A stretch of 59,658 nt of DNA, from positions 2,541,319 through 2,600,976 of the forward strand of contig NW_004797275.1 in the NCBI RefSeq assembly GCF_000002075.1, given 5' to 3'. The position numbers and the translations under genes were made by a program. Of this stretch, positions 1 through 32,820 are shown piece by piece. The stretch's first letter is position 1. Each line of letters opens with the position of its first letter. Source of the stretch: Aplysia californica. Taxonomy: Eukaryota. Under the pieces are notes generated by a model. The model searched no databases. It had not been told where the DNA came from and saw nothing but the letters and a program-made list of their open reading frames with translations.

Positions 1-670
1 AGTAGTAGTAGCAGCAGTCGTACATAATCTGGGTTAGCCCTGAGCTGCTGATTCAAGCAGCTCGCCTCCCAAATAGTATATGCCTGTGGAGGGGGGGGGG
101 TTCAAAACTTACAACATAAATCCCTTCTAGGTTCAATTAAAAATACATAACTCTGTCATCTGACAACAGTTTTTTCGTTGACTTTCAGTGAAGAGAAGCC
201 CAAAAACACTAGATCTGACAAAAGTTTTGGCATTTTTGAGTAAAGAGAAGAACGAAAACACTATAGCTTTTATTTAATGCTGGTGAAAAGCAAGACGGAC
301 AGACTAAAAAATGTATTTAAGTAGAACCTGCAAGTGGCATTCTCCAAATACCCGCCGAAAGTAATCGACGTCAAGTTGTTCATCTGTTCTAAGCCCTAAC
401 CCAAAAAAAATCTTTTATTCAGAAGAGAGGAAAAACTCTTTCATTCTTTTAAAAAGTATACCCCTACATAATGTACTTTTTCTTGTGTTTATCAGCATTT
501 AGAAATTGTATTCTGACAAAATTATTCCTCAAGCACTTGCAACTGATACCACAGATTAAAAAACTGCAATAAATTATGCTTGGGTTTGGGTGGGGTTTTT
601 TTAATGCTGGGCTTTGTGCATCTGAACAACTGGTCGACGTAATATAACGTGCCAGTCGAGCCGGAATGAG

Positions 671-2041
671 TTAATTTGTTCCTTGATTGATTACGACAGT
701 GAATACTGCAAAGATGATGAGCCACATAACAGAGAAAAGAATAAAGAGAATTAAGTCAGCGAGGCCAATGTAAGTGAGCACCCTTGAGAGTACTCTTGTC
801 AAAGCTGTTTGTCCCTTGTTCTCACTTTCAGGAAATCGACACGCTAATTTTCCCCACATTATGTCAAGAAGTTTCGTCATAGTCGTTCCCTTCTGAGATA
901 CCTTTCCTTTTACGGTATCACGAGAGTGAAAACCGGAGCGCGGAGATACCGAACTATTGTACATTTTGTGGGAATGTTCCATGAGTTGGGATGTGTACGT
1001 ATTTTGGTTTGATTCAGTGACTATTTGTGACTCATTGTCTTTACTCTGGCAATTGGTTTTGCTTTTCTCATTGTTATCTCGTCCGTGGTGATACACAGTA
1101 AGAAGGATAATGTTACTGATGAGCACTAAAATGCTGTGCACAAGAAGACACATGAGGTAAATAACAAGCAGGGGCATGTGATCTGAGGTTTTTGGAAGAT
1201 CTGAGTATATCTCGCTCATGTATACGGTCAGAGAGAGAAGGGTGGTGATGGACAGTGACAATCTTTCTCCACTCTCCACCGGTACCCAGAAAACGAACAC
1301 GGAGATACAGGACAGAAGATTAACAGGCATGATGATATTTAAGACGATGAACTGAGGTCTGCGTCTAAGAGATATGGAACACGTGACAAGAGGTAGCCCT
1401 GTAGTGTGTGAAATGAGGCTTGCACCACGGATCTCTAGGATATCCCATTCGCCGTTTTTTGCATGACGACCTGCAGATATACTTGCCAGGCCCATTGAAT
1501 AAGTCACATGGGATGCAATTTCTCCACCGAGAATAGCGAAGTGACATTGTTGGGTGTCAAAGGGAAAGTAGGTCAGGATCATGGAGCAAGAAAAATGAAC
1601 GATTCCTCCAGGAAGCCATGTGACATGTCCGTTGGAGTATAGGTGCAGAGGAGCGTAAGTGTCCCCAATAAAATCCTGGCTTCCAATAGAGTTTGCTGCC
1701 AACAACCGAGGCTTCCAGATGTCTAGAGGGTCCGGTTGGACGTCAGAGATACCGCCATAGTCTTCAGGTCGCCACTGACGCAACTCGTCCGTCCAGGTAA
1801 TATCATACATGAAACACGCCGACATAGTCTGCTGTACCTCATTCACGTCGTAAATAAACAGGAGAGATATAGAGATGTTGACGAGTACTCTGTCTGTCTG
1901 GTTGATCAGGGGCAGGTACCTGTGGTCAGAGGCCAGAATGACGTTCGTGAACAGGTTATGCATATCGCTTACTAGTGCCCCTTGAGCTAAGACGAATGCA
2001 GTGAGGAAGCTTAAAATAAGCAGTAATCTGTTTCTTATCAT
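671..2041 (-). CDS. Divergent nicotinic acetylcholine receptor-like (Cys-loop ligand-gated cation channel) subunit, non-alpha type, single coding exon
   Basis: 456-aa ORF with signal peptide (MIRNRLLLILSFLTAFVLAQG), W.DE.RQW.PEDYGGI and IWKP motifs, and Cys-loop C-x13-C (CSMILTYFPFDTQQC). LRRRP precedes M1; M1-M2 linker VPVESGERLSLSITTLLSLTVY has the cation-type -1' Glu; M3 follows LPKTSDHMPLL; long M3-M4 loop; C-terminal M4 (ADLILFILFSVMWLII). Confidence 0.95.
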   Translation of the reverse strand: MIRNRLLLILSFLTAFVLAQGALVSDMHNLFTNVILASDHRYLPLINQTDRVLVNISISLLFIYDVNEVQQTMSACFMYDITWTDELRQWRPEDYGGISDVQPDPLDIWKPRLLAANSIGSQDFIGDTYAPLHLYSNGHVTWLPGGIVHFSCSMILTYFPFDTQQCHFAILGGEIASHVTYSMGLASISAGRHAKNGEWDILEIRGASLISHTTGLPLVTCSISLRRRPQFIVLNIIMPVNLLSCISVFVFWVPVESGERLSLSITTLLSLTVYMSEIYSDLPKTSDHMPLLVIYLMCLLVHSILVLISNIILLTVYHHGRDNNEKSKTNCQSKDNESQIVTESNQNTYTSQLMEHSHKMYNSSVSPRSGFHSRDTVKGKVSQKGTTMTKLLDIMWGKLACRFPESENKGQTALTRVLSRVLTYIGLADLILFILFSVMWLIIFAVFTVVINQGTN

Positions 2042-2060: not shown

Positions 2061-2090
2061 CTAAAAGAAGGTTGAAGGGCGTCACTGTGA
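2061..2090 (-). promoter_or_regulatory. Putative 3' splice site of a 5'-UTR intron of the nAChR-like gene
   Basis: Minus strand reads cagtgacgcccttcaaccttcttttag|gaattaaaaaaaataccagtATG: branch-like TGAC, pyrimidine tract, and AG about 20 nt before the start codon. Confidence 0.5.
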
Positions 2091-3390: not shown

Positions 3391-3462
3391 ATAAGATATG
3401 ATAAGATAAGATACATCTTTATTGTCCAGATCCTCGCACATTGGTTCTGTGTTTCACCACGT

Positions 3463-3525
<63 letters not shown>

Positions 3526-4125
3526 CGCTCGCGCGCGCAGGCTTACAATCACATGCATAATATAAATTAGCAGCAATATAAACAATAATAATCTTAAGCT
3601 AGATACATACTCAATGTTATTCTGATGCATGCTCTAAGGTCGTATGAATACTTGTACAAGATGGTTAAGATGGAAGAATTTTAATGAATGATGGTAAGTA
3701 AAAATGACCTTCAGATCAGAAGCCTAGGTCTTTTACTTCTGACTGATGTTTCTATTTGAGGGAACAAAGGATGTTTGTTGTCTAAAAAGACGGATTTCTT
3801 TTTCAAGTGTAAGCTGTTAAGTACAATTTATCCAAGTAGGGGAATGTAGATGTCGAAATGTAAGATGCTTTCCGTACTAGTACTAGTCGATTTAATTTTT
3901 CTTTATCTTGTTGTCTTGTGCACCCGACCCATGCTGTTATACAAATATTGATCATACTTTCTTTAGTTGAATAATAGAATGTGGACATCAATGTTTTATC
4001 AACTTTAAGATACATGAGCTTTCTTAGAAAAAATTGTCTTTTTTTCACTTTTCATGCAGGAGAGAAGTGTGGACACGCCAGTTGAGTTTGTTGTCTATTG
4101 TAACACCCAAATACTTAAAGTCTGA
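3391..4125 (-). mobile_element. Rex1/Babar-type LINE, 5'-truncated 3' fragment
   Basis: Similar to 15272-16040: ORF2 C-terminus (KRQFFLRKL...DKEKLNRL), (CA)n in the 3' UTR and an (ATAAG)n tail. Confidence 0.85.
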
Positions 4126-5451
4126 AGGTTCCTTGCACTTGCTCACAAAAGATATTGAATTCGATTTCTTATTCTACTTAGTATTGTCGTCTTTCTGCTG
4201 AGATAACGTGTCCTCTCAGGATCTGAGCGGCCATGGAATGCAAAATCAAAGAAGCTCTTTTTTAGTAAATTTGTTTTCGTCAAAGTAGGTGTAAAACATA
4301 TGACTATCTCAGAGACTCAATCTACTTCTGAAAGCATGCTCCAAGAGGTCGCACGATATACTAAGATGAGAAGTTGCTTGCTTTACAATTCACTGGTAAA
4401 AGAGACACCGCCAAATTCCTGGTTTTAAAAAAAGATAGGCACAGGAGATGTATTATCATACAGTGGGAAAAGTGAAAAAAAAAGGCAGGGGAGAGAGAGG
4501 CTAAAACAGCACCTAAACATAGAAAGCCGGTGCCGTTATAAAAGAATATTCAAGGTTAACTTTCATGTTCAACTCTGTGACTCAGAGAAAGAAAGAAGAC
4601 TGACCTTAACATTAACTATTTGTCAGCTTGCATTCTAGTCTTTCAACAATGTTTGAAGACGAGCTGTTTTGTGACACCTTTCAAAAAGGCAAAACATTGT
4701 TATTCATATGGATTTTTCAGTTGTTTCCTTCATCTGAAATGCTAAAAGGCAAGCATACTATCAAACGTGCAAATTCATGTTTTGATTTGTGTATGAAAGT
4801 TCTAAATATTAAGCCTTAACATTACGCCGATCAGACATGTCTGCTGCGTCAGTAGACAGTTTAGAACGTACCTTTAGAATCTTGATAAAACTATGGTTTC
4901 CTATTCAACTGCACTTCACTTTTGAAGTCTTCACACACACAAAATTCAGTACTGATAGCAAAACTGGATATGATCATGAACGGCAGACTACTTAAACAAA
5001 TCGTTTTATAGCTCGATCTATTTATTTTTTGGGAAATGGGCTAAAGGTTGAAGGGGGAAAAAAGAGAAAAATATTCAAGCTTACTTGTAAAGTAGCGATA
5101 CGGTAAGAACCTTTGTGTTCACGGCTCCTGTGAACCTGTTCGCCCTCCCGCGTTGTACAACTGGGGTCTAATAGAGGTACCGTTGTATTCTATTTACTGC
5201 AGTAATTCACCGGGCATATATACTTAAAACCTCCCTCGGCCTTCAGCTCCTACTCGGTGACTAAACAAAGGTATAAGTGTACCTTAAATTTAGATATTAT
5301 TGACCTGCTGGGTTGTTGGGGGGGGGGGGGGGTTGTGGGGGGCTGGGTTATTTTTTGAGGGGGGGGGGTCCCGATAACCATTATGATCTGAGACTTGTTG
5401 CGATAGGCCCAATGTCTTTTTATCCCTCAAATATTAAGTAGACTACTGGTA

Positions 5452-7134: not shown

Positions 7135-9206
7135 TGCGTTGTCGCATTTGGTCGAGGGATGGTGATGTTCCCACTAGTGCCTTGCATAGCGATTGACTGT
7201 CAGTGAAGATAGCGACCGAGTTGGATGCATCGCACTGTTTGTCAATCTAGTCAATGGCCATTTCAAAGGCTCTCCTCTCTTCCTTGAAAGAGTACGTAAA
7301 TATGGTGTCTTTCTCCCTCAGTGTCTCGACAACTGTCGGGTTGGACGGATCCCCCGTTGTGATGACGACCCCAGTGCCGCCATCCGTTGATCCTGTACTA
7401 TCCGAGCCGTCAGTGTAGATATTGTACTGTGCCCCAAGCTCTTCTGCTCGACAAACAGCAGCGCTTCGGATCTTCGCACTGGAGTCACTCCTTCCGCTTA
7501 TGCCTCACAGGTGGGGGAAAGCGATGTCGGGGTTGATCTTCCTGTTCCCACGGCCTGGTTTCGAAATAAGTAATGGGCCTCCTCACGCAGTTGAACAGAC
7601 TTGGGCTCTTTTAGCTGGCGTCTTCGGCCCTTTTTCGAAAATCTCTACGTCCCATTAGGCGTCTGTGCACATTGTTCCGTTGCCACAATTCGTCGGGGGT
7701 GGTCGTTGTTCATTCGCAGGGCCTTCTCTCTTGATCGGAGACAGTTAGCATAGATAGTGGACTCAATGCTTGGAACCCTCATTTCAGCTCGAAGAGCCTC
7801 GATCGGTGAGAACTGGGCTTGGGTGGTGATCAGTCAGACATCTGTTTTGAACCACCTCCAGATTATTTATCAGAGTTTTGCTCAGCCACGGTTGCCAGCT
7901 GCTGCTCGCAAAGTTGAGGACACGTTGTATATATGGGTGAGGTAGACCTTACGTAGGTCATCTTTACTCCATCCCCATTTCGAGTGCGCGACAGCGCCGA
8001 GCATCCTCATCTTCTTAGTGGCCTTAGCTATTACTGTCTCAACCTGTTTGCTGAACGTGAGCCTGCGGTTGAGTGTGACTCCCAGGAGTCTTGCGTAGGG
8101 CTCATACTTAATTGTCGAATTATTGATCGTGATGCATGGCTTCCATTCTGAGCCAGATGTTTCGAGCGCGAAGAATGTAGTCTCGCTCTTCGAGCCGTTC
8201 AGCGTGAGTTTCCATCGCCTGCTCCAGTCAGCAACGATGTCCACCGCTCTTTGTGTCAGACTTTCGGCGTCTCGTACCGTGCGTGATGAAGCGAGGATAG
8301 AGACGTCGTCAGCGTAGATCGAAATTGTGAGATCATCCGGAAGTAGTTTTGCCAGTTTGTCAATATAAAAGAGGAAGAGGATGGGTGCCAGGGCGGAACC
8401 CTGTTGGAGGCCTTAGCTCATTTTCCTGTTCTTACTCTATATTCCGTTGAATCGGACTAAGGCTTGATGATTTTAAAGGAAGTCATTCAGCCATAAAACG
8501 TATTTATCTGGGATACCTCTGTCTATGGGAGGTTGTGGAGTAGGTGTTCTCGCCAAACCGTGTCGTATGCCTTGGGAAAAAAGAGGAGGACGAGTAGCGA
8601 TTTCTCCTTCTTTTGGAAGCCATCGGAAAACTTCGGCATAATTCTCAGAATTTGGTCTTCCACACATCTCCCCTTCCTGAAGTCAGCCTGCAGTTCGGAG
8701 AACCAGCCGTTCTGCTCGGCCATGTCGTAGAGTCGTTCAAATACCATTCTCTCCATAGCTTTGATGACACAGGATGTGAGGCTTATCGATCTAAACGAAG
8801 TTAGTTCCGATGCTGGTATGGCGGTCTTGAGGAGGGGGGGATGATTGCGTCTTTCCAGACTTGTGGAACATCTGCTAAGCGAAATGATATGTTGAAGATG
8901 GAGAGTATTGGAGAGCAGTTTCTCAAGCGCTTTGGAATCCAGGTTTTTGAGGAAGGACGGAGGGATGTTGTCTGGTCCGGGTGATCCACGGGACTTCATC
9001 TTTGCAATGGCATTCCTCAGTTCCGAGATTGTGAAATCGGGCTGGTCTGCCCTTGGGTTATTCCGTAAATATTTCAGTCGCTGTTTGAGTTACCAATTAC
9101 AATAAATTAAATGTACCAGTATTTTCGGCTCTGTCTCCTTTCGACATTTTTAGACCACAGACGTTCGCGTAGTGGTCTGTGAACATATCCGCCTTATGTT
9201 TGTTTG
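7134..9206 (-). mobile_element. Degenerate RNase H-containing non-LTR retrotransposon ORF2 (Ingi/I-group)
   Basis: PGPDNIPPSFLK, SISLTSCVIKAMERM, QQGSALAPILF, YADD (gtcgtcagcgta near 8305), RLLGVTL; frameshifts and stops. Confidence 0.85.
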
Positions 9207-9347
9207 NNNNNNNNNNNNNNNNNNNNNNNNNNNNNNNNNNNNNNNNNNNNNNNNNNNNNNNNNNNNNNNNNNNNNNNNNNNNNNNNNNNNNNNNNNNNNN
9301 NNNNNNNNNNNNNNNNNNNNNNNNNNNNNNNNNNNNNNNNNNNNNNN

Positions 9348-12020
9348 GCCTGACGGGCTTCACGAAGAAATCTTCGAGCGAGAGCGAGGCTCTTTTTCGG
9401 CTCCATTGTCAATATGCTTAGCGGCACCTCCACTCGTCCAAATAACTCCATTCGAATTGCCATTGTTCCTGGACATTCAAACATATGTTTGATATCCTCC
9501 TTTTCATGGCCGCATCTTCGGCAACTTGGGCTAAGCTCTTCATTTACAAAGTTCTTATACCATCTTAAACTCCAATGATGGTCCGACCGCAGTCTCGCTA
9601 GCTCAACCTGGTCCCAGCGACATGTGATAGATTTTTGTTCCCGCTTATAGGAGTACCCAGAATACACATCTTCCAGGTGCTGGTACTTAGTTCTACATGG
9701 TGGGTCTCTGATTTCTCTCTTGATTATTGGAAAGACTCCTGTGTATGTCGTTGGTCGTCTGTCTCCTTCGATCTCTCTGGCTTCATTAGCAGCTTGGTCT
9801 GCTGCCTCATTTCCTTCTATTCCAACATGGCTTGGAATCTACTGGATTTTTATTGTGGCTCTGGCTTCACTGAACTTAGGGCGCAAATCATTCATGTCCG
9901 AGCTGTTACCCAGCAGCCCCTTGCAGAGGGACTGACTGTCAGTCAAGATCAGCACATTGGTCCTACTGTGGCAATTGTCGGCAATCCATTGTGCAGCAGA
10001 CATCATTGCCTGGCATTCCTCGTCATAAGATGATGTAAGGAATGCACCTTTAGTTTTAATAATTTCTGTTCGTGGTGGTTCATCATTTATTATCACTACT
10101 GCTGCTGCTCCACCTTCGCGGTATCCTGCGACTGCTGATCCATCGGTGAAAATTGTCACATCCGGCCCGACCTCTTTGATCACATCCTCAGCTGCTTCAC
10201 GTGCCTTTACAGGATCATCACCTTTTCCTTTTACTCCTCTCAGTTCTGTCCGAATTTCGATTTCGCCATGGGTCTCCCATGGACAAGCTCTCATCAGATT
10301 GATCGGCCATCGATTCTCTGCTTCAGGGGGGAGGTGGTCTGCTAGATCGGTGCCCATCCGAAACCAACTTTTCCTGCGGTTTTTAGGCTTGACTGCTTGA
10401 TCAAGGGCTTTCTTTCTAGGATGGTTGTCTGGTAATCTCTTAGCCATCTCTATAGACTTGAGGCATGTTCTTTTTGTATAGGTGGTGTACTGCTCAGTTC
10501 TGGTCTCATAGCGCAGCGCTTCTGTTGGTGTTGTTTTCAGCTGACCTGATACAAGTCGGAGGGCTTTGTTTTGTATTCTGCCCAGGGCCTTTGCACTAGT
10601 CTCACTCAGCCAAGGCTGCCACGCTGGGGCAGCATAATCCAACTTGCTTTTCACAAACATCTGATATATTTTCTTGAGCGACTCCTTACCCCAGCCCCAT
10701 TTTGAGTTGCTGACAGCACCGATAACCTTCATTTTAGAGGTTGCACTTTTGGACACCTCTTCAATGTGCTTGTTGAAGGTTAGCTGTCTATCCAGGTAGA
10801 CGCCCAGCTGACGTGGAGTGGGGTTGAATGGTATCTTTTTCCCTTCGATCTGAATTATTGGTTGCCACGTTGCCTCCTTCACCCGTGTTGAGAAGAAGCA
10901 CACTTCACTCTTGGTTGCATTCAAGGTAAGCTTCCATTCATTGCTCCATTTCACAACCACATCCACAATCAACTGTGTCGCTTCATTTGCCTTTGCTCTC
11001 TTTGCGTGACTGGCCAGTATTTGTGCAGTCATCAGCGAACATTGAGTAGATCAGCTTGGCGGAGGTTAGTTGTTGAGTCAGGGTTTGGGAGGGATTCTGC
11101 CAGGTTGTTTATGAGGAATATAAACAGCAGCGGTGATAGTACAGCTCCTTGGGGAAGCCCTTGCTTGAAATTCTGGCTCTTGCTTGTTTCTCCGTTCAGG
11201 CGAACATGGGCTTGTCTGTTTCTCAGGAAACCATGGATCCATCTGATTGCACGCAACGGAACTCCCTTGTCAGCCATTGACAGTAATAGTCTTTCACGCT
11301 AAACCGTACCATATGCCTTGGAGTAGTCCAGCAGGACTAGGACCGATCGATGGAATGTTGGCTTTTGTTGAAAACCATCCTCAATTCCTTGACAGATTCT
11401 GATGATCTGGTCCGTGCAGCTATGACCTTGGCGAAAGCCTGCCTGAATATCTGCAATCCATGCATTCTTCTCTGACAGGTAATAGATTCTTTCAGTGTGC
11501 ATCCTTTCTATAACTTTCACGACACAGGATGTCAAACTAATAGGTCGAAAGGATGTCATATCACTAGGTGACTTACCAGCTTTCAAGAGAGGAATGATAA
11601 GTGCCTTACGCCAGTCTTGTGGGCACGCTGCTTGGTGAAGCGACAGATTACATGTGCTGAGCAATTCTTTCAATGCGAGTGGGCCAAGCTCTTTTAGGAA
11701 AGATGGTGGTATATCATCAGGTCCTGGAGCACTTCTTCTCTTCATTTGTGTTATGGCACGCTCCAGCTCTTTCATAATGAAGTCTGTGTATGATTGCTGT
11801 TCATCTTCGCTGTTCGTATCGTCATACAGCAGGCGCTTCAATCGGAGTTTGTTTCTTCTGCGCTCCTCTTGGGTAAATTGGAGCTTACTGATTTTTGCAT
11901 ACCGGTAGTGCTGGGCAAAAAGCTCAGCTTTCTTCTTTGCTAATGTTATCCTTTTCCCGTTGTGTTTCAGTACTTTGTTGGGAGAGTTGGTATCTGGTGA
12001 TCCATTTAGAGACTTGATGT
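9348..12020 (-). mobile_element. RNase H-containing non-LTR retrotransposon ORF2 (Ingi/I-group), 5'-truncated and disrupted
   Basis: RT motifs (RPISLTSCVVK, QAGFR, LDYSKAY, GLPQGAVLSP), RNase H motifs (FTDGS, SSYDEE, TDSQSL, QWIPSH) and C-terminal CxxC...HxxxC (CRRCGHEKEDIKHMFEC). Confidence 0.9.
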
Positions 12021-12021
12021 G

Positions 12022-12052
<31 letters not shown>

Positions 12053-12068
12053 AATAATGATGATGATG
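12022..12068. repeat. (GAT)n microsatellite
   Basis: Direct reading. Confidence 0.9.
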
Positions 12069-12260
12069 GGGTTCTATGCTGATCAAAGCGTTAGGCTACA
12101 CTGCTTACTCAAGACACTTATTTTGTTTCTCGGTACTTTTCCTTTCACGTGACTTCAATAGTCGTCAGTCTTACTATTTATTATTAATTTAGGTTCCAGA
12201 AGAATTAGTTTCGTGCTAGATATTCAGCGACGTCCATATTTCATATTTTTAGAGTACAAT

Positions 12261-12289
12261 ATGGCGGCCTCCAGCTGGTTTTCCAAATA
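12261..12289 (+). CDS. Speculative first coding exon of the oxidoreductase gene (MAASSWFSK-)
   Basis: aatATGGCGGCC start context; donor ATA|GTAAAC (phase 2) joins in frame to the acceptor at 17756, giving MAASSWFSKYLLQASSTVMKIAIIGGG. Alternative donors at 12396 and 12448 could instead make this a 5'-UTR exon. Confidence 0.3.
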
Positions 12290-12467
12290 GTAAACAATGC
12301 ACGTCGGCACCGTTGCATAATGTTTAGTGGATGCATGAGTTGGATCTACCTTTGCCCTTAGCCTTAGTTTAGTGCTCGCTTTGGCTTTCATCAAGGTAAT
12401 TCCTGGTTTCATCTTACACTTTTTATAACTCTGAACATTTTACCAAGGTAAAGATGCAAGATATAAT

Positions 12468-12882
12468 ATCTAATCTACTACATCTAGATAGATCTAGATC
12501 TAGATCTAGATCTATATATCTAGATCTAGATTATAGATCTAGATCTAGATTCTAGATATAGATCTAGATCTAGTAGATCTAGATCTAGATCTAGATTCTA
12601 GATATAGATCTAGATATAGAACTAGATATAAAAGGATGCCCGGAGAAAATAATTCTAATAGTACTACTGTGTAGGAGGGCTGCTAGAATCTAGATCTAGA
12701 TCTAGATCTAGAATCTAGATATCTATCTACACAATCTAGATCTACTATCTAGATCTAGATCTATTATTCTACAACCTTTTAGCTCTAACTAGTCTAGGCT
12801 AATGCTAATGTCTCTGTGACTAATGACACTTCATGACAAATGTGTAGTGTAGGCTAGATCTAGAACTAGATCTAGATCTAGA
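12468..12882. repeat. (TAGATC)n / TCTAGA palindromic hexamer repeat tracts
   Basis: Many tandem tagatc units at 12480-12630, 12685-12762 and 12855-12882. Confidence 0.95.
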
Positions 12883-13237
12883 ATGGGGGTTTTTTTCACG
12901 ATTACAATAATGGACTTGACTGTTAACATTATTTGCGGAAGAACTTCCTTAATGTGAGGGACCACCCAACAAAGATAATAAACAGAAAGAAGAGACCTGG
13001 ATCTACTAACCTTTACCCTGACCCCTACCCTACCATTACCGTTCATTGTCCCTAGCAGAAGGGCTTCTGAAATGAGCGACCACTCAAACAAAAACAATAA
13101 ATCAGACACATAACCCTGACCCAAACCCTATCCCTACCCTTCCCCTAACCTTACCCTTACACCTAGATCTCTATCCCAAACCCTTTACTTTAACCCTCTC
13201 TTCTACTCTGTTTCATAGCACAGTGGACTGTGTTTAT

Positions 13238-14595
13238 GTAACAAGATGGTTAAGATGAAAGAATTTTGATGGATGGTGGTAAAAATGACCTTCTGTATCT
13301 TTCTTTTATTTCAGATCAGAAGCTTCTAAGGTCTTTTACCTCTGACTGATGAGGGAGCAATTTTTAAGGGATGTTATTTGTTTTTGTACAAAAAGATAGA
13401 ATCAATTTTTGGGGGGGAAGAGGCTAGCCGTACTTAATGACGGCTAGACTGGCAGTCTAGCCGTACTTAAGTACGACCTGTACTTATTCTTAATATGATG
13501 GCTAGACTGACCTATTTACAAAAAATAGGCCTACTGAATTGTAAATATACATTTTTAGTGTGCAGTACCTAAAGTATTTGTATTTGAGACGAAACCAGGG
13601 GCCTTAATGACAGTGCATGTATTTTAAACCTCCTGTTTTCTAATGTTAATAGGGCCTAAGATAAGTACGGCTAGACTGGCAGTCTAGCCGTACTTAAGTA
13701 CGGGTAGATATCCAGGCTAGCCGTACTTAAGGACGGCTAGACTGTCAGGCTAGCTGTACTTAATATTGATGGCTGAATTGTAAATGAAATTTTTAGTTTG
13801 CAATGCCTAAAGTATTTGTATTTCAGACAAAACCAAAAGGTGCCTTACTGACTTGCATGTATTTGAACCTGAATAATTACTAGATCTAGATCTAATGAGA
13901 CCTGTGTACTTAACAGGCTTGAGTCGATTGGGCCAAACCTAGATCTAAGTACGGCTAGCCACTTCGGGTTTTTTTTTGGTGCAAGCTGTAAAATATGTGA
14001 TCCAAGTAGGGGAATGCAGATGTTGAAATTTTGCATGCTTTCCGTATTAATCGATTTAATTTTTCTTTATCTTGTTGTCTTGTGTTCCCAGTCCATGCTG
14101 ATACAGAAATTGATTCTCATTATAATGCTTTCTATGGTTGAATGATAGAATATGGACATCAGTGTTTTATCAACTTTAAAATACATGAGCTTCCTTAGAA
14201 AAAAATAGTCTTTTGTTCACTTTTTTTAATGCAGGAGAGAAGTGTGGACACGCCAGTGGAGTTTGTTGTCTGTTGTTACACCCAAATGCGTATAATCTGA
14301 CACTTGCTCGATGTTCTCACTTTTCATTTCGAGTTGCTGCAGGGGCTTTTCTAAAGTTAACAACAAGTTCCTTTGGGTTTTTTCACATTTAAAAGCAGCT
14401 TATGATTTTCACACCATTCAGAAAAGTTAAGAACAAAATTCCAGTTAGCAGTTTCATTATGGTTAGCCTGAATGAGCCCAATTATTGTTGAATCATCCGC
14501 AAATTTGATCAACTTGATGTTACTGTTGTTTATTTGGCAATCGTTGGTGTATAGTGTGAATAAAACTGGTGACAAAACACATCCTTGAGGGGCCA
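13238..14595 (-). mobile_element. Rex1/Babar-type LINE fragment, split by the insertion at 13411-13975
   Basis: APQGCVLSPVLFTLYTND and KFADD motifs; colinear with 15560-16340. Confidence 0.9.
13411..13975. mobile_element. Non-autonomous element with subterminal inverted repeats and internal palindromic tandem repeats (Helentron/HINE-like)
   Basis: gaagaggctagccgtactta ... taagtacggctagccacttc; flanked by T runs; absent from the homologous Rex copy near 15720. Confidence 0.55.
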
Positions 14596-14827
14596 TCTTT
14601 ATGATAAAGATCAGAAACGTAAACGTCTAGCTACGTAACACTTACAAAGTTCACTTACACTAGATCATTCTTGAGCAAAAATGTGCATGCGAGTCAATTG
14701 AATTTGATTGTGTGCATAGTTCAATATCTACAAGGCTTGGGCCACTGATATATTCACGGTATATTTTATCAAACTCAATAAATGGCAAATTATATGTAGT
14801 TTCTGACCTGGATGTTTAGGTCTAGAG

Positions 14828-14988
14828 CAGTGGTTCTTACCTAAGTAGGTCAAACACCAGCTGCTCAGTGAGTCAGTCTTGGGGATTCAAATACAAAGAA
14901 GTCAGTGTCAGGGGTTCAAATACAAAAGGAGTCCATTCGGCTCTCCCCTCTTGAAGGGATCGGTATCCCCAACAAGTAAAACCCACTG
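14828..14988. mobile_element. hAT (Charlie-like) MITE
   Basis: CAGTGG...CCACTG termini with 8-bp TSD-like flanks gtctagag / gtctaata. Confidence 0.65.
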
Positions 14989-15150
14989 GTCTAATAATAA
15001 ATGATAGGTAATATTTTGTATGTATGTGAAGCAGCGTAGTGAAATCAGGCGCTCGTCAAAATACAGAAATCGGAGAAACAGGTATTTTTCTCCCAGTTTG
15101 GACCCTTTTATCTAATTTTTTTTTCATTTTTTTGGCTCAACGTCTCTTTG

Positions 15151-15374
15151 GTTTTTTTGGTTTTGTAAAGTGTTTTTACGGCGCTCGCAACTGCATAAGG
15201 TCATATGAGCGCGCAGGACACACTAATATTTTCAGTTGGTAGGAAATTTTGCCCGGGTGGTGGCCGAAGCCTATAAGATAAGATAAGATAAGATACATCT
15301 GTATTGTCCAGATCCTGGCACATTGGTTTGGTGTTCCACATTGGTTTGGTGTTCCACCACGAGTACACACACAC

Positions 15375-15419
<45 letters not shown>

Positions 15420-16899
15420 TGCACGCACATGCACACACAAGTAGGCTTACAATCACATACATAATATAAATGAGCAGCAATATAAACGATAATAATCGTA
15501 AGCTAGATACACACTCAATGTTATTTTGATGCATGCTCTAAGGTCGTAAGTACACTAAACAAGATGGTTAAGATGGAAGCATTTTGATAGATGATGGTAA
15601 AAATGACCTTCTGTAACTTTCTTTGTTACAGATCAGAAGTATGGGTCTTTTACTTCTGACTGATGTTTTTATTTGAGGGAACAAGGGATGTTTGTTGTCT
15701 AAAAAGATGGAATTAATTTTCTTAGTGCAAGCTGTTATGTACAATTCATCCAAGTACGGGAATGAAGATGTTGAAATTTTACATGCTTTCCGTATTAGTC
15801 GATTTAATTTTTCTTTATCTTGTTGTCTTGTGTTCCCGGCCCATGCTGTTATACAAAAATTGATCTTACTTTCTATGGTTGAATGGTAGAACATGGACAT
15901 CAATGTTTTATCAACTTTAAAATACTTTAGCTTTCTAAGAAAAAATAGTCTTTTGTTCACTTTTTTATGCAGGAGAGAAGTGTGGACACGCCAGTTGAGT
16001 TTGTTGTCTATTGTAACACCCAAATACTTATAGTCTGACACTTGCTCGATGTTTTCACATTTCATTTTGAGTGGCTGCAGGGGCAGTTTCTTTATTCTAA
16101 AATCAACGACAAGTTCTTTTGTTTTTTTCACATTTAAAAGCAGCTTATGATTTTCACACCATTCAGAAAAATTAAGTACAAAATTCCGGTAAGCGGTTTC
16201 GTTATGGTCAGCCTGAATTAGCCCAATTATAGCTGAATCATCTGCAAATTTTATCAACTTGATGTTACTGTTGTTTATTTGGCAATCGTTCGTGTATAGT
16301 GTGAATAAAACTGGTGACAAAACACATCCTTGAGGGGCCCCTGTATTTGTTGTGATGTATGTCGATGAAGAATGTTTTAATTTTACATACTGGGTTCGGT
16401 TGGTAAGAAAATTGCCTATCCATGATATTAAATTGACGTTAACACCTATGTTTTCTAATTTCTTTAAAAGGATAGCTGGCTGGATAGTATTAAAGGCTGA
16501 CGAAAAATCAACAAACAGGATCTTTAAGGGATCTTTAACGTGCGCAGCTTGCACACAGGCCCTCCGAGATTTTTCGCCCTTGTCCGAGAAGGCTAGGTGT
16601 AGATCTTTCCTACCAGAAGATCAGGGGTGTGGCAGAAAGACAGCAGTAAGGAGGAGCCAAGGAGTAGCAGTAGAAAGGCTGCAGAAAGAGTCAGGAGCCC
16701 AGAGGAGGGGGCAAAGGAGGTGAGGGGGTGGGGGCAGAAAGTGGAAATGAAAGCAGACGACAGAACATGGCAAGAGAGCGGGAAAGGAGGTGAAAGGAGA
16801 CAATTTTAGAGAAGAAAATTTTTTGGTCGCTACCCGGATTTAAACCCGAGACCTTTGAATGAGAGTCCTACACCTTAACCTCTAGGCCACGAGAGCCCC
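15151..16899 (-). mobile_element. tRNA-derived SINE carrying the Nimb LINE 3' tail, interrupted by a Rex LINE
   Basis: Minus-strand head ggctctcgtggcctagaggttaagg...gggtttaaatccgggtagcgacca (boxes A and B, 16897-16824); tail gcgcgctcatatgaccttatgcagttgcgagcgccgtaaaa (15214-15174); TSD-like ctcaacgtct / ctcaacatct. Confidence 0.75.
15272..16550 (-). mobile_element. Rex1/Babar-type LINE, 5'-truncated, RT C-terminal half open (ORF 15568-16554)
   Basis: LFVDFSSAFNTIQP, TGAPQGCVLSPVLFTLYTND, KFADD, NVKKTKELVVDFR, YKYLGV; (CA)n 3' UTR; (ATAAG)n tail. Confidence 0.92.
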
Positions 16900-17780: not shown

Positions 17781-17877
17781 ATGAAGATTGCAATCATTGG
17801 TGGAGGAATCGCAGGACTGACGTGTGCAGCAAGACTAGGCCAGCTTGGCATATCAGATGTAACAGTCTTTGACACTG
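17781..17877 (+). CDS. Renalase-like FAD/NAD(P) oxidoreductase, coding exon A (Rossmann dinucleotide-binding motif)
   Basis: MKIAIIGGGIAGLTCAARLGQLGISDVTVFDT-G; GxGxxG; donor G|GTAAGC at 17878 (phase 1). Too short for the ORF track. Confidence 0.9.
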
Positions 17878-17918
17878 GTAAGCATCATCAAGCAGTAGGC
17901 TGCAGACAACCATATTAA

Positions 17919-18157
17919 CCCTATCCATACGTCTTGTTTTACTATCGTATCCATACAACGTGGGGAACTCTGTGCCACCACTTTCCAAAAAGGAAATTTG
18001 CTCTTTGATCCGATCCGTACGCTTTGCATAGCAGTCTGTCAAAATTATTTTTTGAGAAATACTGAAAGTTTCAAAGAGATCGTCGTACTAGAAGTATTCT
18101 AAAATGTGAAGAATACAACCCCGGGGTACAAAATGACCCCAGGGCGTACGGATAGGG
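17919..18157. mobile_element. piggyBac-like MITE
   Basis: TTAA|ccctatccatacg ... cgtacggataggg|TTAA. Confidence 0.85.
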
Positions 18158-19274
18158 TTAAACAGATTCATGAGAAAGAAAAATGGGGTCTCAGGTCTTA
18201 AGCGCTTAAAGCTCAAGCATTGTTTACAATTTTCAATGAGTGAAGAGGGCCCTAATTTTCTTACCCTTAGAACAGTGCTTTTTAGTAAAATAATAACTAT
18301 AAAAAGCAACCATATCATTATGTAACAAGAGCCTTTGAAATGGCATAAAATGCTTTTCACTTCTGTATAATATATGAGTTTAAGATTGACACCCTACTAG
18401 ATGCACAAAGATCATTTTGAAAGGGGGCGGGGATATAAAAGAACCATTCAATCAGCTGATCAGCATGAAAAAGGGGGATAAGAACACTATAGTATGCAGA
18501 AAAGGTGCAACCCCTTTGACATATAGAGACTTGGAAAGTTTCACCATATGATGGTGATGCAGCAGAATGTTTATATCTCTCAGCATGTTCAGGGGTCAAT
18601 CATGATTCATGAGATGTGAGAATATTAAAAGCATAAAGATAAAATTTTCATTTTGATTGCACAGTGTCAATTGTAAACAGTCGTGGTAACATTAAGTATG
18701 ATTTTAAAAGACAATGGTAATTGTCTCAAATTTGATTATTTAAAAAGAGCCTCCTCAAAGCAATGGAAAAAAGACAACCTCAACTTGTTGACATGCTTCT
18801 CTCAAAATAGGACGCACTAATTTGTTTTCATTCATTACTTCACCCGTTGCATTCATTCCACACTTTTGCTCTGATGACTAGTGGGGATCTCAGTTTCTTC
18901 TCTTTAAATAAATGGTTTTTAGTCCTTCAAGCAGCTCCATGTAGTGTTTGGACTCTTTGAGCTTATGAAGTCCTTAGTACATGATGTTCTCAGATTTCTT
19001 AAGCAGTTGTTAAAGACAAACACAAAGATAACATTGACTTTTAATGTGCCATATAAGATAATAATAGAACAATGTCATCCCTTCAGAGGCTGAAATGACA
19101 AATAAAGAGGCGCTTGGGTTTGGGGGGTCTGTGCCAGTTTGATTTTACTAACTTTTGGCAGGATTTGGAATACAGTCTTTTAAGAAATACTTGTGGCAGT
19201 TACTGTTCTGATGGATTTACAGTGGTTCATGTTGTTTCAAATTAAACATGTACATTTTTCCCCCCATAAAACAG

Positions 19275-19502
19275 GCAAACATGCAGTCGGTGGAAGATGC
19301 TCAAGTCGCATTGTAAACATCAATGGGCAGCTGTCAGTGTTTGACCACTGTGTGCAGTATTTCACAGCTAGTGACCCCAGGTTCAAAAAGATCTTGAGCT
19401 ACTTGATCAGAGATGGTGCAGTGACACAATGGAAAGGTCCAGTCGGCCATCTTCAGAGAGGAAGATTTCAGGCTGATTCACAATTTACTCAAGCTTATGT
19501 TG
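19275..19502 (+). CDS. Renalase-like oxidoreductase, coding exon B
   Basis: cag|GC AAA...: KHAVGGRCSSR...FDHCVQYFTASDPRF...WKGPVG...AYV; donor G|GTAAGT; 228 nt, phase 1-1. Confidence 0.92.
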
Positions 19503-21269
19503 GTAAGTAGAAGATAGCTTTGAAAATTTTGAAATTTTATTACAGTCCAGCTAACTCACAGCAAAATCAGCAGGTAGCGGAAATCTTTTTGTGCTCAAAT
19601 TTTAAATATTTAGAATATAATACATCATGATAATAATGATAATAATAATTATAATTGCATCTTTTATATAAGTATTATATATAGTGCATATCCAGGCTCT
19701 ACAGCATGCTCTAATCGCTTTACAATTATAGGCCTACATGTATAAGAAAAAATCTGAGACCTGAAATTCTGTTTGCTGTCATACACGTGGTTTGCTATGC
19801 GTGTGCTAAACTGTACAGTCAAATCCCATTATACCGCCTATGTTGGGAAGAGCATGAAGTTGGAGGTACAGCAGGGCTGGAGGTACAATGAGGTTTTCAT
19901 GTCCCCTGCTAAATACATGGGTGAGTCCTCACTAAATAAAAGCCCCACAGGAATTCATCAGCTTGTAAGTTTTTGGGCTGATATCTGGCGATGCCGGATT
20001 TTTGGGGGGGTTTGGGGGGGGGGGGTGAGATGGCGAGGTCACTTAAAAGTTTCTCCAGGTGACTTAAATAGTCAGATTCGCGCGGAGAGCGAAATTTGAT
20101 GCTGAATTACAAAGTTATATTTTATTTTAAATGTACTCTTCTATATTACACACATTGTATTGTGTTTGCTTTTGACACACTACATCACCGTAGATCTATC
20201 TATCCATTTTTCCTGAAATCTACAAGACAAGGGTGGGGAGGAGAGTTGCACAGGGAGGGAGCAAATTAGAGAAAAGTGTTTGATCTAGACCTAGGCGCTA
20301 GCTTGTTGAGACGTGTGTGAAAGTTTGTCTAGCAACCACAGAGTGGATGTGCCATGCACTGTGTGTAGCCAAGTGTGTACTGTGTATTTCTGGTGGCCAG
20401 TTCGCTGGCGATGTACACCTGAGACAGATGGCTGATGGCGGTGTAAAGGCGCAAATACTGTGTTTATATAGGGGATTCTTTTTCGTACATTGGCAAAACC
20501 TGGTGGTAAGCGGGGCTGGGGGTTCAACAGAGGGGAAGGGGTACATGGAGGGGAGGTTTGACTGTATATATTTCCATATATAGTAGCATGAACCAGTACT
20601 GAGTGGATGCATTCTGCATAACGTTTGATAGCTTTAGAATGTTGTTGGAAATTTTCAAATTTGATTTGACCATTTCTATTAAATGGATGCCATGTCAGAA
20701 GATAGAACAATTAAGACAAGTTTTTATAGACACCTACATGAAGCACTAACATTATGTGCAGTAATAGTAGTCCTTTAGATTGTTTAATCATGCAGTAAGT
20801 ATCAAATTAACATCACAGCATTCTCAGACTGGTTTCCTCCTTGATATGTTCAACTGTATCTAATTACTGGTCTTATGGTTGGTCAAGTGATTGTAGCAAT
20901 AACTTGTGATTAAAGTATGAGTTCTCAGATTTATGAGTGCCTTTGCTTACTTTCATTCTCATTAGCATTCTTATTTGTCTGCCTGGAAGATATCATTTGC
21001 TGGAAAGTCTTTTTTTATTTGTTGACATTCTACAGTTTGAAAATTCTGTAAACTCTCAATGTCAGACTGTATATTTAAAGCAGTTTGTTTTGTTTTTCAA
21101 AAGTTTTAAGAAGTTGTCAAAAATTTTCTGCATTTCAGATTATACCCCTTGGAGCTGATTGTGTTATTCTCATTATATTTCAAATAAGCAGGGTTTTTTC
21201 TCTTGCTCATCAATATCTGCATGAGATTTTTGCATTTCTATTAAAAGTTTATTCTGTTCTATGTCGCAG

Positions 21270-22034
21270 GTGTGAATGGCATGAGGTCAGTCCCTGAAAG
21301 CCTGGCAAAGTTCTGCAAAGTTCAACGACCAGCATGGGTCAGTACTATTCAGTTTGACTATCACCTAAAGAAATGGACTGTTGACAAATGGGGTGTATAT
21401 GACTTTGTAGTCATTGCTCATAACGGGAAGTGCGCTGCTAAACTGACAGAAAATGCTGGTGCTCCAGAAATCCACAGGCTTTGTCATACACGTTTTGCGT
21501 CTCGGGTTAATCCCAAGGACAGTCGCATGACGTTGTGTTCATTGTTTGTTCTCATGGTGGCTTTTGAGCGCTCACTTAAGTTACCCTACGAGGGAGCTCA
21601 TGTAGCCGACAGTAACATCTCATGGATAGCCAACAACTCGGCCAAACTCAAAGGTACATCTTCATCTTCAGGGATTTTGCCAGGAAATAAATTGGAATGC
21701 TGGACAATTATCAGTTCTAAAAATTTAGCAGAGCAGAACAAAGTCCCCCAAGAACACATACCTCAGAATGTGGAAAAACGAATATCTGGCATCATGCTGG
21801 AATCTTTTGCAGAAGCAACTGGACTTAAAGGGAAGCTGCCAGTTGTACACTTTCAGAAACTACAGCTATGGGGAGCGGCCGTGCCCCTGAACACATTAGC
21901 CACCGGGTCTGAGTGTGTCTTTGATGCCCAACGTCAGATTGGAATCTGCAGCGACTGGTTGGTCAGTCCCTGTGTTCAGGGTGCAGCAGTCAGTGGACTG
22001 GCCTTGGCAGAAGCAATTGGATCCTGTATCAAAG
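21270..22034 (+). CDS. Renalase-like oxidoreductase, coding exon C
   Basis: cgcag|GT GTG AAT GGC ATG: NGMRS...VIAHNGKCA...SWIANNSAKL...QLWGAAVP...GICSDWL...AAVSGLALA; donor AAAG|GTATTG; 765 nt, phase 1-1. Confidence 0.92.
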
Positions 22035-22109
22035 GTATTGAACTTACTCTTGCCTTTGCTTAAGATTGTTTTGTTGTATTTCTATAGTTATTCCAAATGC
22101 GATGTAGGC

Positions 22110-27954: not shown

Positions 27955-28177
27955 GTGGCGTCGGTAGCCTAGTGGTTAGGCTACCGGGCTCGTAATCGTG
28001 AGATTGCGAGTTCGGGGGTTCGAGCCTCAGCTCGGTCCGACGTTGTGTCCTTGGGAAAGGCACTTTACACGAACTTCCCACTTGGCTCGGTCCTATCGGA
28101 GACGGACGTTAAACTAGGAGGTCTCGTCCCTTAAATAACCTAATAGTGTTGACAGGGGTGTTAAACCTATACCATTT
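27955..28177 (+). mobile_element. tRNA-derived SINE inserted in the 3' LTR
   Basis: Box A tagcctagtgg, box B ggttcgagcc; 13-bp TSD caaacttgaactt; absent from the other LTR. Confidence 0.92.
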
Positions 28178-31100: not shown

Positions 31101-32820
31101 GACATAGTTACTGGTTGGAGCTCTGCAGGGACATATCAGGCTTAATGTCTTGGAGGACTTTGTTGACTTTGTCGTACAGGAGCTGGTCCAGGGATAGACC
31201 TAGGCTTCTGCATGATTCTCGGTCGAGGAGGTTCAGCTGCAGACGGGTGACGACGAACTTTTGTTGTTCGCGTTTGTCGTCCTTAGCCAACGTAGTTGGG
31301 ACTGTGATGACTCCGAGGACAGGAAGGTCTTGATCAGAGGCACACCGGTACTGGCTGTTGGTCTATTTGGCCTATTGAGCAGGTGCCATGTGTTCAAAGA
31401 GATAAAATTATCTCTGGAGCCGGTGTCGACCTATAGCTGGACTGGATGCCCCGATATATAGCACTCTTAGGTTCTGGGCTTGATGCTTGAACTCTTGATC
31501 GTCTTCACAATCGTGACTCGTTGGCTTTTTTTCTTTCGGCATGCCGCCTCAATGTGGCCCTTGATGTTGCAGAAACAGCATGTGGCAGTGGCAAAACGGC
31601 AGCTGTCAGATGTAAGGGCTCCGTCACATCTGGTGCAGCGTTTCTGTTGCAGCCATTTCTTCTCGTGATGAGACTTGTGTTGAGGTGTTGTCTGCTTAGG
31701 CCAGGACGGCTTTCCTGGCGCTCGTCTCTGCGACTGCCCGACTTTGTGGACGGCCGTGTCCTGAGACGTTAATGTCTCTTTTGCGACCTTTGAAGCCTCC
31801 TCTGCCTCTGCTGCAAGTTCGATGGCGCTGGCGAAGGTCAGCTCGTCGTCTTTGATTTTAAAAAGGGCTTTACTGGTTGCCTCGTTGTGGATGGAGCAGA
31901 CAAACCGAGTCCTCATGGCTTCGTCCAGCGGGTCAGGGTCACTGATAGAGGCAGAATCGCAGGTGGCAGCTTCTTGCCTGATTCGGGCTGCCAGTTCGTT
32001 GACAGTCTCCCCTGGCTTCCTCTATGTGTTGGTCCAGAACTTGAGCTGTTCTCGTACTATGAAGCGTTTAGGGTTGTATTGATCTGTCATGTAGGCTGAG
32101 ATCTCCGTCATTGACAGACTGTTGATGTCCCTTGGTGGCGACTGTTGCTGGGCCAGATTCATCAGCAGTTTGTCGCCGACACTGGACTGGTTAGTGAGGA
32201 ATATTTCTGCGCGCTGATCGTCTGGAATAGCGTTAGCCTGTGTGAAGGTTTCGAACCTGGCACTTACATGACCAAAATTGAGTCGATAGTGCCGTAAGAC
32301 ACCTACTCAATCAATCAAAAATCAGAATCTGAACCAGTAATCCGACCAGAGCTCGATAGAGAGGTCGAATTCTCCAAACTTCGTGCTTATGACCGTCTTC
32401 TTCTACTAGACTTCGGCAAGTAACACCTCCATCTGCTGCTGCCGTTTACTCTCATCTGTTCTCGCAGCAGTTTGATCAACTCATCCTGGGACTGTGAGCG
32501 AGACATGACGACTGGTCTCTGACCGGCAGCAGCTTGTTCTGTCGCTAAAGTTATGTTTTACGGCTCACGCTTTCTCGGTGTTCTGTTCTTAGAAGAACAG
32601 GGAAAAGCACGAGACGTTGGTCGGCCTTTTGACACGTTTCACTTTTCTCGCTGTTTTGTCCTAAGATTAAGAAGGACAGGAAACCAAACCAGACGTTGAT
32701 CGGCTAAGTTTGACACGTTTCACTTTTCTCGTTGTTTTGTCCTTAGAAGGACAGGAAATTACAACAAGACGTTGACCGGACAAGGTTTCGAACTATGCAC
32801 GCTCTCCTGCTAAAGTATAA

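What the first reader, a model, noticed from the sequence alone, without database searches (positions are those of the whole stretch)
671..2041. Intronless nAChR-like channel with a dismantled acetylcholine pocket: candidate chemosensory or orphan receptor
Seen: an intact 456-aa ORF in one coding exon, in a window where most other long ORFs are broken TE relics. The Cys-loop and cation-type M2 (GERLSL) are retained. Loop C has no vicinal Cys or Tyr (GASLISHTTGLP), loop B has no Trp (FAILGG) and loop A has no Tyr (LLAANS). Established: canonical nAChRs are intron-rich and bind ACh through an aromatic box; cephalopod chemotactile receptors and expanded bivalve nAChRs are often intronless and have lost these residues. 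Inference: a retrocopy-derived, possibly lineage-expanded receptor for a non-ACh environmental ligand in a gastropod.
Basis: partly seen in the sequence, partly recalled or inferred. Interest (0 to 1): 0.75.

Follow-up and report, generated by a model that had tools for sequence, protein, structure and literature searches.

The report
Snail orphan nicotinic-like ion channel gene
This is an intact snail or sea-slug gene for a channel subunit related to acetylcholine receptors that has lost every acetylcholine-gripping residue and likely opens to some other molecule, but such genes are already known by the dozens in mollusc genomes and nothing found here shows that it senses the outside world.

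Summary
Window 671-2041 (minus strand) is an intact 456-aa, single-coding-exon Cys-loop channel subunit. All five aromatic-box residues of the acetylcholine site and the loop C vicinal cysteines are gone, while gating and cation-pore residues are kept.

It is not unusual. None of 116 aligned homologs has loop C vicinal cysteines, and 19 of 116 also have no aromatic at the five sites. Intronless, pocket-altered nAChR-like genes are a published molluscan expansion (11-120 intronless genes per genome), and a 2026 preprint already proposes a gastropod chemosensory role for them.

The gene sits in an old orthogroup shared with sacoglossan slugs and land snails (100/99 support). It has no paralog in the window, and an AU test rejects grouping it with conserved beta/delta subunits. 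It resembles alpha7 (29% identity) more than the solved cephalopod chemotactile receptors (19-24%), but no tree containing those receptors could be built. Three poly(A) RNA runs of unknown tissue gave no reads on the coding sequence.

Verdict: a likely functional orphan cation channel of a known family. A chemosensory role is possible but untested.

The parts
671..2041 (-). Single-exon coding sequence, 456 aa, nAChR-like Cys-loop channel subunit (P0001)
   Evidence: unbroken in one contig of DNA run X1
1979..2041 (-). Predicted signal peptide, residues 1 to about 21
   Evidence: hydrophobic N-terminal helix 2-18 in the model; cleavage point inferred by eye
1355..1930 (-). Extracellular ligand-binding domain (residues 38-229)
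   Evidence: Pfam PF02931, E 5e-31
1808..1810 (-). Loop D: Met78 in place of the complementary-face Trp
   Evidence: alignment to alpha7 and to canonical controls
1694..1696 (-). Loop A: Ala116 in place of Tyr
1544..1588 (-). Cys-loop C152-C166, intact
1523..1525 (-). Loop B: Gly173 in place of the cation-pi Trp; Gly in all 8 aligned orthogroup members
1391..1426 (-). Loop C (206-217): shortened, no vicinal Cys, no Tyr
1199..1270 (-). M2 pore helix: -1' Glu259, 2' Ser, 6' Thr, 9' Leu, 13' Val, 16' Ser, 17' Glu277
   Evidence: cation selectivity inferred from the -1' Glu and the absence of a PAR motif
677..805 (-). MA/M4 helix (413-455)
   Evidence: model
2061..2085 (-). Candidate splice acceptor (polypyrimidine tract + AG) 20 nt before the ATG: possible 5'UTR intron
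   Evidence: no spliced read seen
414..419 (-). Candidate polyadenylation signal AATAAA, about 250 nt after the stop
   Evidence: untested

Best explanation
It is an intact member of the known molluscan expansion of intron-poor, nicotinic-receptor-like genes, and it likely encodes a subunit of a pentameric cation channel that would open to a small molecule other than acetylcholine. Shown: the full anatomy; loss of all five aromatic-box residues on both faces; retention of gating residues (E68, the Cys-loop FPFD, pre-M1 R227, M2-M3 P283) and of a cation-type M2; and membership of an old heterobranch orthogroup. Inferred: the subunit assembles with itself or with relatives. Its interface pocket, lined by small and aliphatic residues (A116, G173, M78, L143, L216), would bind a neutral or greasy ligand rather than a quaternary amine. 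Binding would open a Na+/K+ (possibly Ca2+) pore and depolarise a small set of cells. The single coding exon is likely inherited from an ancient retroposition at the root of the family, not from a recent event. Whether the ligand comes from outside or inside the animal is open; I put external at a little under half of this explanation.
For: Intact 456 codons among broken mobile-element ORFs. It matches 63 of 72 family-conserved columns (0.875, family median 0.819; homologs were chosen by similarity to it, which biases this upward). Against one other individual (DNA run X1), the coding sequence shows 2-3 differences in 1371 bp and no indel, versus 27-28 in 4350 non-coding bp (Fisher p 0.03-0.09). 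Tree (46 rows): 7-row orthogroup 100/99, inside a 15-row heterobranch clade 97/93, inside a 31-row clade 100/98 whose named members are all gastropods. Pocket census: 0 of 116 homologs have loop C vicinal Cys; 5 of 116 have an aromatic at the loop A site; 0 of 27 in the nearest clade have the loop B Trp. M2 -1' Glu is present in 114 of 116 homologs and in this protein. Self-assembly of the extracellular domain (4 copies): score 0.60 against best control 0.01, runs agreeing in at least 88% of contacts, pLDDT at least 76. That mark was reached by 21 of 30 solved homo-pairs and 0 of 23 single chains (microbial calibration; 17 of 29 for eukaryotes), and since like complexes are solved the pass may be from memory. 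Literature: PMC6896357 reports 11-120 intronless nAChR genes per mollusc, 127 nAChR genes in Aplysia, and only 13 of 132 oyster genes with complete principal sites.
Against: No reads on the coding sequence in 3 of 3 raw poly(A) runs (13-15 million reads read each; one study; tissue unknown; no positive-control gene in the stretch). One of the two listed coding differences in X1 is non-synonymous (L23P). The terminal branch is the longest in its orthogroup (0.96), with 36 private changes against 23-29 for the three comparable members, which could mean relaxed selection. Loss of the box does not prove a new ligand: a mammalian muscle beta1 subunit also matches 0 of the 5 canonical residues (P0263). 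No ligand, current or expression site was observed.
Confidence: 0.65

Rival explanations
1. Sharper form of the best explanation, counted inside its 0.65: it is a peripheral chemoreceptor for an external, poorly soluble compound, expressed in tentacle, rhinophore, lip or foot epithelium, working like cephalopod chemotactile receptors.
For: Pocket of small and aliphatic residues. Fast evolution of the whole protein: 34-44% identity to orthogroup members in the ligand domain and 43-49% in M1-M3. Absence from 3 bulk RNA runs fits sparse expression. CRs are precedents for ACh-insensitive, terpene-gated nAChR-like channels (passages of PMC10338036). PMC13174522 names gastropod rhinophores and tentacles as candidate sites.
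Against: No expression in a sensory organ was shown. No tandem paralog in the window. The orthogroup is retained in both marine slugs and land snails, which fits a conserved ligand as well as a habitat cue. Bivalve members are reported in gill, gonad, embryos and infection responses (PMC6896357). Less similar to CRT1/CRB1 than to alpha7.
Confidence: 0.28
2. It is an accessory (structural) subunit that binds no ligand itself and tunes the pore or assembly of a heteropentamer whose ligand sites are built by partner subunits, as muscle beta1 does.
For: Both faces lack ACh-site residues, as in mammalian beta1 (0 of 5 canonical residues). M2 carries an acid at 16' or 17' in all 8 aligned orthogroup members, which could set conductance in a heteromer.
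Against: The whole surrounding clade lacks the box (loop B Trp 0 of 27; vicinal Cys 0 of 116), which is many genes to be all accessory. It does not descend from conserved beta subunits (AU p 2.6e-99). The ECD model supports self-assembly, with the memory caveat.
Confidence: 0.2
3. It is a silent or decaying retrocopy that has not yet acquired a stop.
For: No reads in 3 of 3 RNA runs; longest branch in its orthogroup. PMC6896357 reports 7.7% (C. gigas) and 31% (P. f. martensii) of intron-poor nAChRs with no or low expression.
Against: Intact from signal peptide to M4 after about 1 substitution per site of divergence; conserved columns kept; fewer coding than non-coding differences and no coding indel in X1; full-length orthogroup members in 4 named genera.
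Confidence: 0.1
4. It is a gastropod member of the cephalopod CR or 'CR-like' clade by descent.
For: PMC13174522 describes a CR-like clade that includes gastropods. Single coding exon and lost box are shared traits.
Against: Structure-based identity is 24% to CRT1 and 19% to CRB1 (Z 23.0 and 24.3), against 29% to alpha7 (Z 30.8). CRs are not among the best 60 PDB hits for the protein or for the family profile. This is similarity, not phylogeny, and CRs evolve fast.
Confidence: 0.07
5. It is an ortholog of a conserved neuronal or muscle beta-type nAChR subunit.
For: Lacks vicinal Cys, so it is formally 'non-alpha'.
Against: AU test rejects one clade with 9 vertebrate, echinoderm and arthropod beta/delta/alpha3-type rows (log-likelihood 124.9 lower, p 2.6e-99). 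Loop D Trp is absent. No molluscan beta subunit was in the set.
Confidence: 0.01

Closest known systems
Expanded intron-poor molluscan nAChR genes (Jiao et al. 2019, PMC6896357; divergent clades of MolluscaGenes, PMC13174522)
   Same: Single coding exon, LBD-TM architecture, lost principal ACh residues, cation-type M2, mollusc host; nested among gastropod members in my trees.
   Different: No tandem neighbour within 57.6 kb on one side (only 670 bp visible on the other); belongs to an old orthogroup rather than a species-specific burst. Which published family or clade number it falls in could not be read (supplement unreadable).
Cephalopod chemotactile receptors CRT1 (PDB 9e6b) and CRB1 (PDB 8eiz)
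   Same: nAChR-derived, ACh-site residues altered, reported intronless (passages); same fold (Z 23.0 and 24.3).
   Different: Only 24% and 19% identical, less than to alpha7. CRT1's pocket uses Y39, Y58, W122, F124 (passage), whereas this protein's five box sites carry no Trp, Tyr or Phe. CRs have shown sensory expression and ligands; this gene has neither.
Vertebrate alpha7 nAChR
   Same: Best solved sequence match (E 5e-46) and best structural match among cluster representatives (Z 30.8, rmsd 3.2, 352 aligned); Cys-loop, -1' Glu, 9' Leu.
   Different: alpha7 has the complete aromatic box and vicinal Cys, and is intron-rich (recalled). Here 0 of 5 box residues remain, loop C is about 4 residues shorter, and M2 has Ser16'/Glu17' in place of Leu/Leu.
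Alvinella Alpo4 orphan nAChR-like receptor (PDB 8bx5; PMC10338036)
   Same: Lophotrochozoan orphan, no vicinal Cys, not gated by ACh; same fold (Z 26.3, 20% identity).
   Different: Alpo4 keeps the aromatic residues of loops A-D (passage); this protein has lost them.

Membership tests
Cys-loop pentameric ligand-gated ion channels | LBD and four-TM domains with a 13-residue Cys-loop | tested here: met
   Pfam PF02931 and PF02932 above cut-off; C152-C166; fold matches
Cys-loop pentameric ligand-gated ion channels | Forms a pentamer that conducts ions on ligand binding | not testable with these tools
   Only a 4-copy ECD model was run; no functional data
Canonical nAChR alpha subunit | Vicinal Cys in loop C | tested here: not met
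Canonical nAChR alpha subunit | Principal aromatic box (loop A Tyr, loop B Trp, two loop C Tyr) | tested here: not met
   A116, G173, H212, L216; the arthropod controls P0245 and P0237 read W-Y-W-Y-Y in the same columns
Conserved nAChR beta/delta subunits | Phylogenetic grouping with them | tested here: not met
   AU p 2.6e-99; no molluscan beta row in the set
Conserved nAChR beta/delta subunits | Complementary-face loop D Trp | tested here: not met
   M78
Expanded intron-poor molluscan nAChR-like genes | 0-2 introns in a molluscan nAChR-like gene | tested here: met
   No coding intron; at most a candidate 5'UTR intron
Expanded intron-poor molluscan nAChR-like genes | Clusters with divergent molluscan paralogs, apart from canonical subunits | tested here: met
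   31-row clade 100/98; the intron status of those homologs was not checked
Expanded intron-poor molluscan nAChR-like genes | Often in tandem arrays (55-65% of genes in two bivalves; typical, not obligatory) | tested here: inconclusive
   No paralog in the window (best outside tblastn E 0.012 over 159 queries), but the gene lies 670 bp from the window's edge and no genome is held
Cephalopod chemotactile receptors (CR) / CR-like clade | Phylogenetic placement in the CR or CR-like clade | tested here: inconclusive
   No CR sequence could be obtained for a tree; structure-based identity is lower than to alpha7
Cephalopod chemotactile receptors (CR) / CR-like clade | Expression in sensory epithelium | tested here: inconclusive
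   0 coding reads in 3 runs of unknown tissue
Cephalopod chemotactile receptors (CR) / CR-like clade | ACh-insensitive, gated by hydrophobic natural products | not testable with these tools
   Needs electrophysiology

The most novel reading that the evidence does not exclude
This orthogroup, kept from marine slugs to land snails with an emptied pocket (invariant loop B Gly) and an acidic ring at 16'/17' of the pore, is part of a gastropod family of ionotropic contact chemoreceptors that arose independently of cephalopod chemotactile receptors. That would be a second origin of taste-by-touch channels from nicotinic receptors in molluscs.
Probability: 0.22. Interest if true: 0.7.

Novelty: new member of a known kind. 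Interest (0 to 1): 0.3.

Why it matters
The function of the hundreds of pocket-altered nAChR-like genes in non-cephalopod molluscs is an open question; my 9 paper searches found no functional study of a gastropod member. An intact, apparently single-copy gene with relatives in several snail and slug genera, and with no coding intron so it can be amplified from DNA, is a convenient test case. If it proved to be a sensory receptor, it would extend ionotropic Cys-loop chemosensation beyond cephalopods. As a sequence finding alone it adds one more gene to a described expansion.

Tried and rejected
Whole-genome paralog count: not possible, no genome is held. Tandem paralog in the window: none; 54 tblastn hits outside the ORF, all E >= 0.012.

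Nesting in a host-gene intron: rejected for the renalase-like neighbour, whose coding exons lie wholly at 17781-22063; a host gene beyond the window's left edge is not excluded.

Expression: no RNA holder listed among 24 runs, which is no evidence either way. X1, guessed as RNA, proved to be DNA (all 30 bins covered). I laid 4 of the 24 runs.

CR phylogeny: no CR sequence came back as a usable protein. CRs were absent from the best 60 PDB rows and from the Foldseek and VIA re-rank lists shown.

dN/dS: no ortholog DNA, and the divergence is too deep. The local-flank polymorphism contrast (p 0.0004-0.004) was set aside for the wider, weaker one (p 0.03-0.09).

Rows dropped: the census used 116 of the 178 other proteins then held. 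Multi-domain fusions, proteins outside 270-560 aa, near-duplicate cluster members, fragments and about ten poorly aligned rows were left out. The careful tree used 46 rows, with the long 5-HT3 outgroup left out.

Papers: Albertin 2015, Kang 2023 and Allard 2023 are not held. The MolluscaGenes supplement could not be read and may assign this clade a name. Earlier scan findings: 4 look-ups; the only item returned concerns a channel-less AChBP-like gene and does not bear on this.

Full report
Observation. It has an N-terminal hydrophobic helix, a Pfam ligand-binding domain (38-229, E 5e-31) and a transmembrane domain (236-379, E 6e-23). An AlphaFold2 model built on a 117-sequence alignment has mean pLDDT 85 and four membrane helices. 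Of 17 other long ORFs scanned, 15 carry reverse transcriptase, RNase H, endonuclease, integrase or transposase-associated domains and 2 had no hit. The exception to 'all relics' is a three-exon renalase-like gene at 17781-22063 on the plus strand.

The pocket. I aligned the protein with canonical controls, in which two arthropod subunits read W-Y-W-Y-Y at the five aromatic-box columns. This protein reads M78, A116, G173, H212 and L216 (the first loop C column aligns loosely). There are no vicinal cysteines, and loop C is about four residues shorter than in alpha7. The gating residues remain: E68, the Cys-loop with FPFD, R227 and P283 (their roles are recalled). M2 has Glu at -1', Thr at 6' and Leu at 9', as in 114, 107 and 113 of 116 homologs. 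Cation selectivity is inferred from this.

How unusual is it? Not very. The representative search found 10,058 proteins at E <= 0.001 and 791 at E <= 1e-30. Among 116 aligned homologs, none has loop C vicinal cysteines, 5 have an aromatic at the loop A site, 19 have no aromatic at any of the five sites and 42 match none of the five canonical residues. In the nearest 27, none has the loop B Trp. Jiao et al. (PMC6896357; I read parts 1-4 of 6 of the text) report 11-120 intronless nAChR genes per mollusc and 127 nAChR genes in Aplysia. They propose retroposition followed by tandem duplication, and find only 13 of 132 oyster genes with complete principal sites. The MolluscaGenes preprint (PMC13174522; passages and section 3.4; supplement unreadable) describes several clades with altered pockets and already names gastropod rhinophores and tentacles as candidate sites.

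Ancestry. The closest relatives are 33-39% identical and come from Candidula, Bradybaena, Plakobranchus, Elysia and unnamed Logan entries. In a 46-row maximum-likelihood tree, seven of these form one group (100/99), within a 15-row heterobranch group (97/93), within a 31-row group (100/98) whose named members are all gastropods (labels). Holding the gene together with nine conserved beta, delta and alpha3-type subunits is rejected (p-AU 2.6e-99). The gene is therefore an old lineage shared by marine sacoglossans and land snails, not a fresh retrocopy. No paralog lies in the window, and in DNA run X1 the gene sits on one contig at depth 58 against 46-56 for the longer flanking contigs, which fits a single copy. 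The gene lies only 670 bp from the window's edge and no genome is held, so a tandem array on that side is not excluded.

Relation to cephalopod chemotactile receptors. No CR sequence was available for a tree. In a structure search over 48,161 chains, alpha7 scored Z 30.8 (rmsd 3.2, 352 aligned, 29% identity), Alpo4 26.3 (20%), CRB1 24.3 (rmsd 3.2, 311 aligned, 19%) and CRT1 23.0 (rmsd 3.0, 289 aligned, 24%). This gives no sign of special kinship but is not a phylogeny. What I say about CR function rests on passages of PMC10338036, PMC11682238 and bioRxiv 10.1101/2025.10.28.685082. Albertin 2015, Kang 2023 and Allard 2023 were not held, and van Giesen 2020 was not read.

Is it alive? For: the frame is intact after about one substitution per site on its own branch, and it keeps 63 of 72 family-conserved columns (biased upward by how homologs were chosen). 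Against another individual (X1) the coding sequence has 2-3 differences in 1371 bp and no indel, versus 27-28 in 4350 non-coding bp (p 0.03-0.09); of the two listed, one is silent and one is L23P. Against: three raw poly(A) runs from one study (13-15 million reads read each) left no read on the coding bins 751-2052 and next to none on the presumed 3'UTR. Their tissue is unknown, the stretch held no positive-control gene, and a 3'-end library with a long UTR would also give this result. The branch is the longest in its group (0.96), with 36 private changes against 23-29 in three comparable members. A good-looking splice acceptor ends 20 nt before the ATG (chance about 0.02-0.05), so the transcript may have a non-coding first exon; no junction read was seen.

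Mechanism. The most likely reading (0.65) is a subunit of a pentameric cation channel opened by a non-cholinergic small molecule that binds in a roomy interface pocket lined by small and aliphatic residues, acting in a narrow set of cells. A four-copy model of the extracellular domain scored 0.60 against a best control of 0.01, with runs agreeing in at least 88% of contacts and pLDDT at least 76. That mark was reached by 21 of 30 solved homo-pairs and 0 of 23 single chains in the microbial calibration and by 17 of 29 eukaryotic pairs; because like complexes are solved, the pass may be from memory. One feature marks the orthogroup: an acidic residue at 16' or 17' of M2 in all 8 aligned members, where alpha7 has leucines. 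It could affect conductance or calcium entry (inference). The external-chemoreceptor reading is a subset of the best explanation (0.28). An accessory-subunit role (0.2) remains because muscle beta1 has likewise lost all five canonical residues. A silent copy is at 0.1.

Verdict. A real gene, correctly described, but a new member of a published expansion, for which the chemosensory idea is already in print as a hypothesis. Nine searches of the held library found no functional study of a gastropod member; subscription papers are largely not covered. Interest 0.3. If a sensory role independent of CRs were shown (probability about 0.22), it would merit 0.7.

Noticed in passing
window 17781-17877, 19275-19502, 21270-22063 (+): A three-exon renalase-like FAD oxidoreductase gene with GT-AG boundaries in matching phase (372 aa by arithmetic). 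Rossmann motif in exon 1 (Pfam NAD_binding_8, E 4.5e-7); the last exon matches bacterial renalase (E 1e-5) and ESM clusters of chordates, green algae and planctomycetes. It lies head-to-head with the channel gene, 15.7 kb away.
   Followed up: partly
window 1199-1270 (-), M2 helix: Acid at 16' or 17' of the pore helix in all 8 aligned orthogroup members (Glu277 here); uncommon among the other homologs.
   Followed up: partly
window 1814-1816 and 1379-1381 (-): Two cysteines private to this protein (C76, C221), where all 7 orthogroup relatives have Asn and Phe; whether they pair could not be measured.
   Followed up: no
window 2061-2085 (-): Candidate splice acceptor for a 5'UTR intron; the upstream exon was not found.
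   Followed up: partly
window about 3400-4130: Very high-copy repeat (summed contig depth 80,000-380,000 in X1) that draws poly(A)-tailed reads in all three RNA runs, most likely from copies elsewhere.
   Followed up: no
runs X7 and X8: Two small runs of unknown kind, one under a second organism label, hold about 0.6 of the gene's words; they may be transcriptomes.
   Followed up: no
P0014, P0015, P0017, P0018, P0019 and others: Many top hits are 580-1215 aa with 2-9 matched stretches: probably tandem single-exon receptor genes joined by gene callers, or the multi-domain forms listed by Jiao et al.
   Followed up: no
window 7882-16620, 25491-32021, 35058-37541, 40204-40980, 55654-59345: Broken mobile elements: non-LTR elements with RT and RNase H, LTR-type RT/RNase H/integrase pieces, a hAT transposase and a P-like transposase.
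   Followed up: partly
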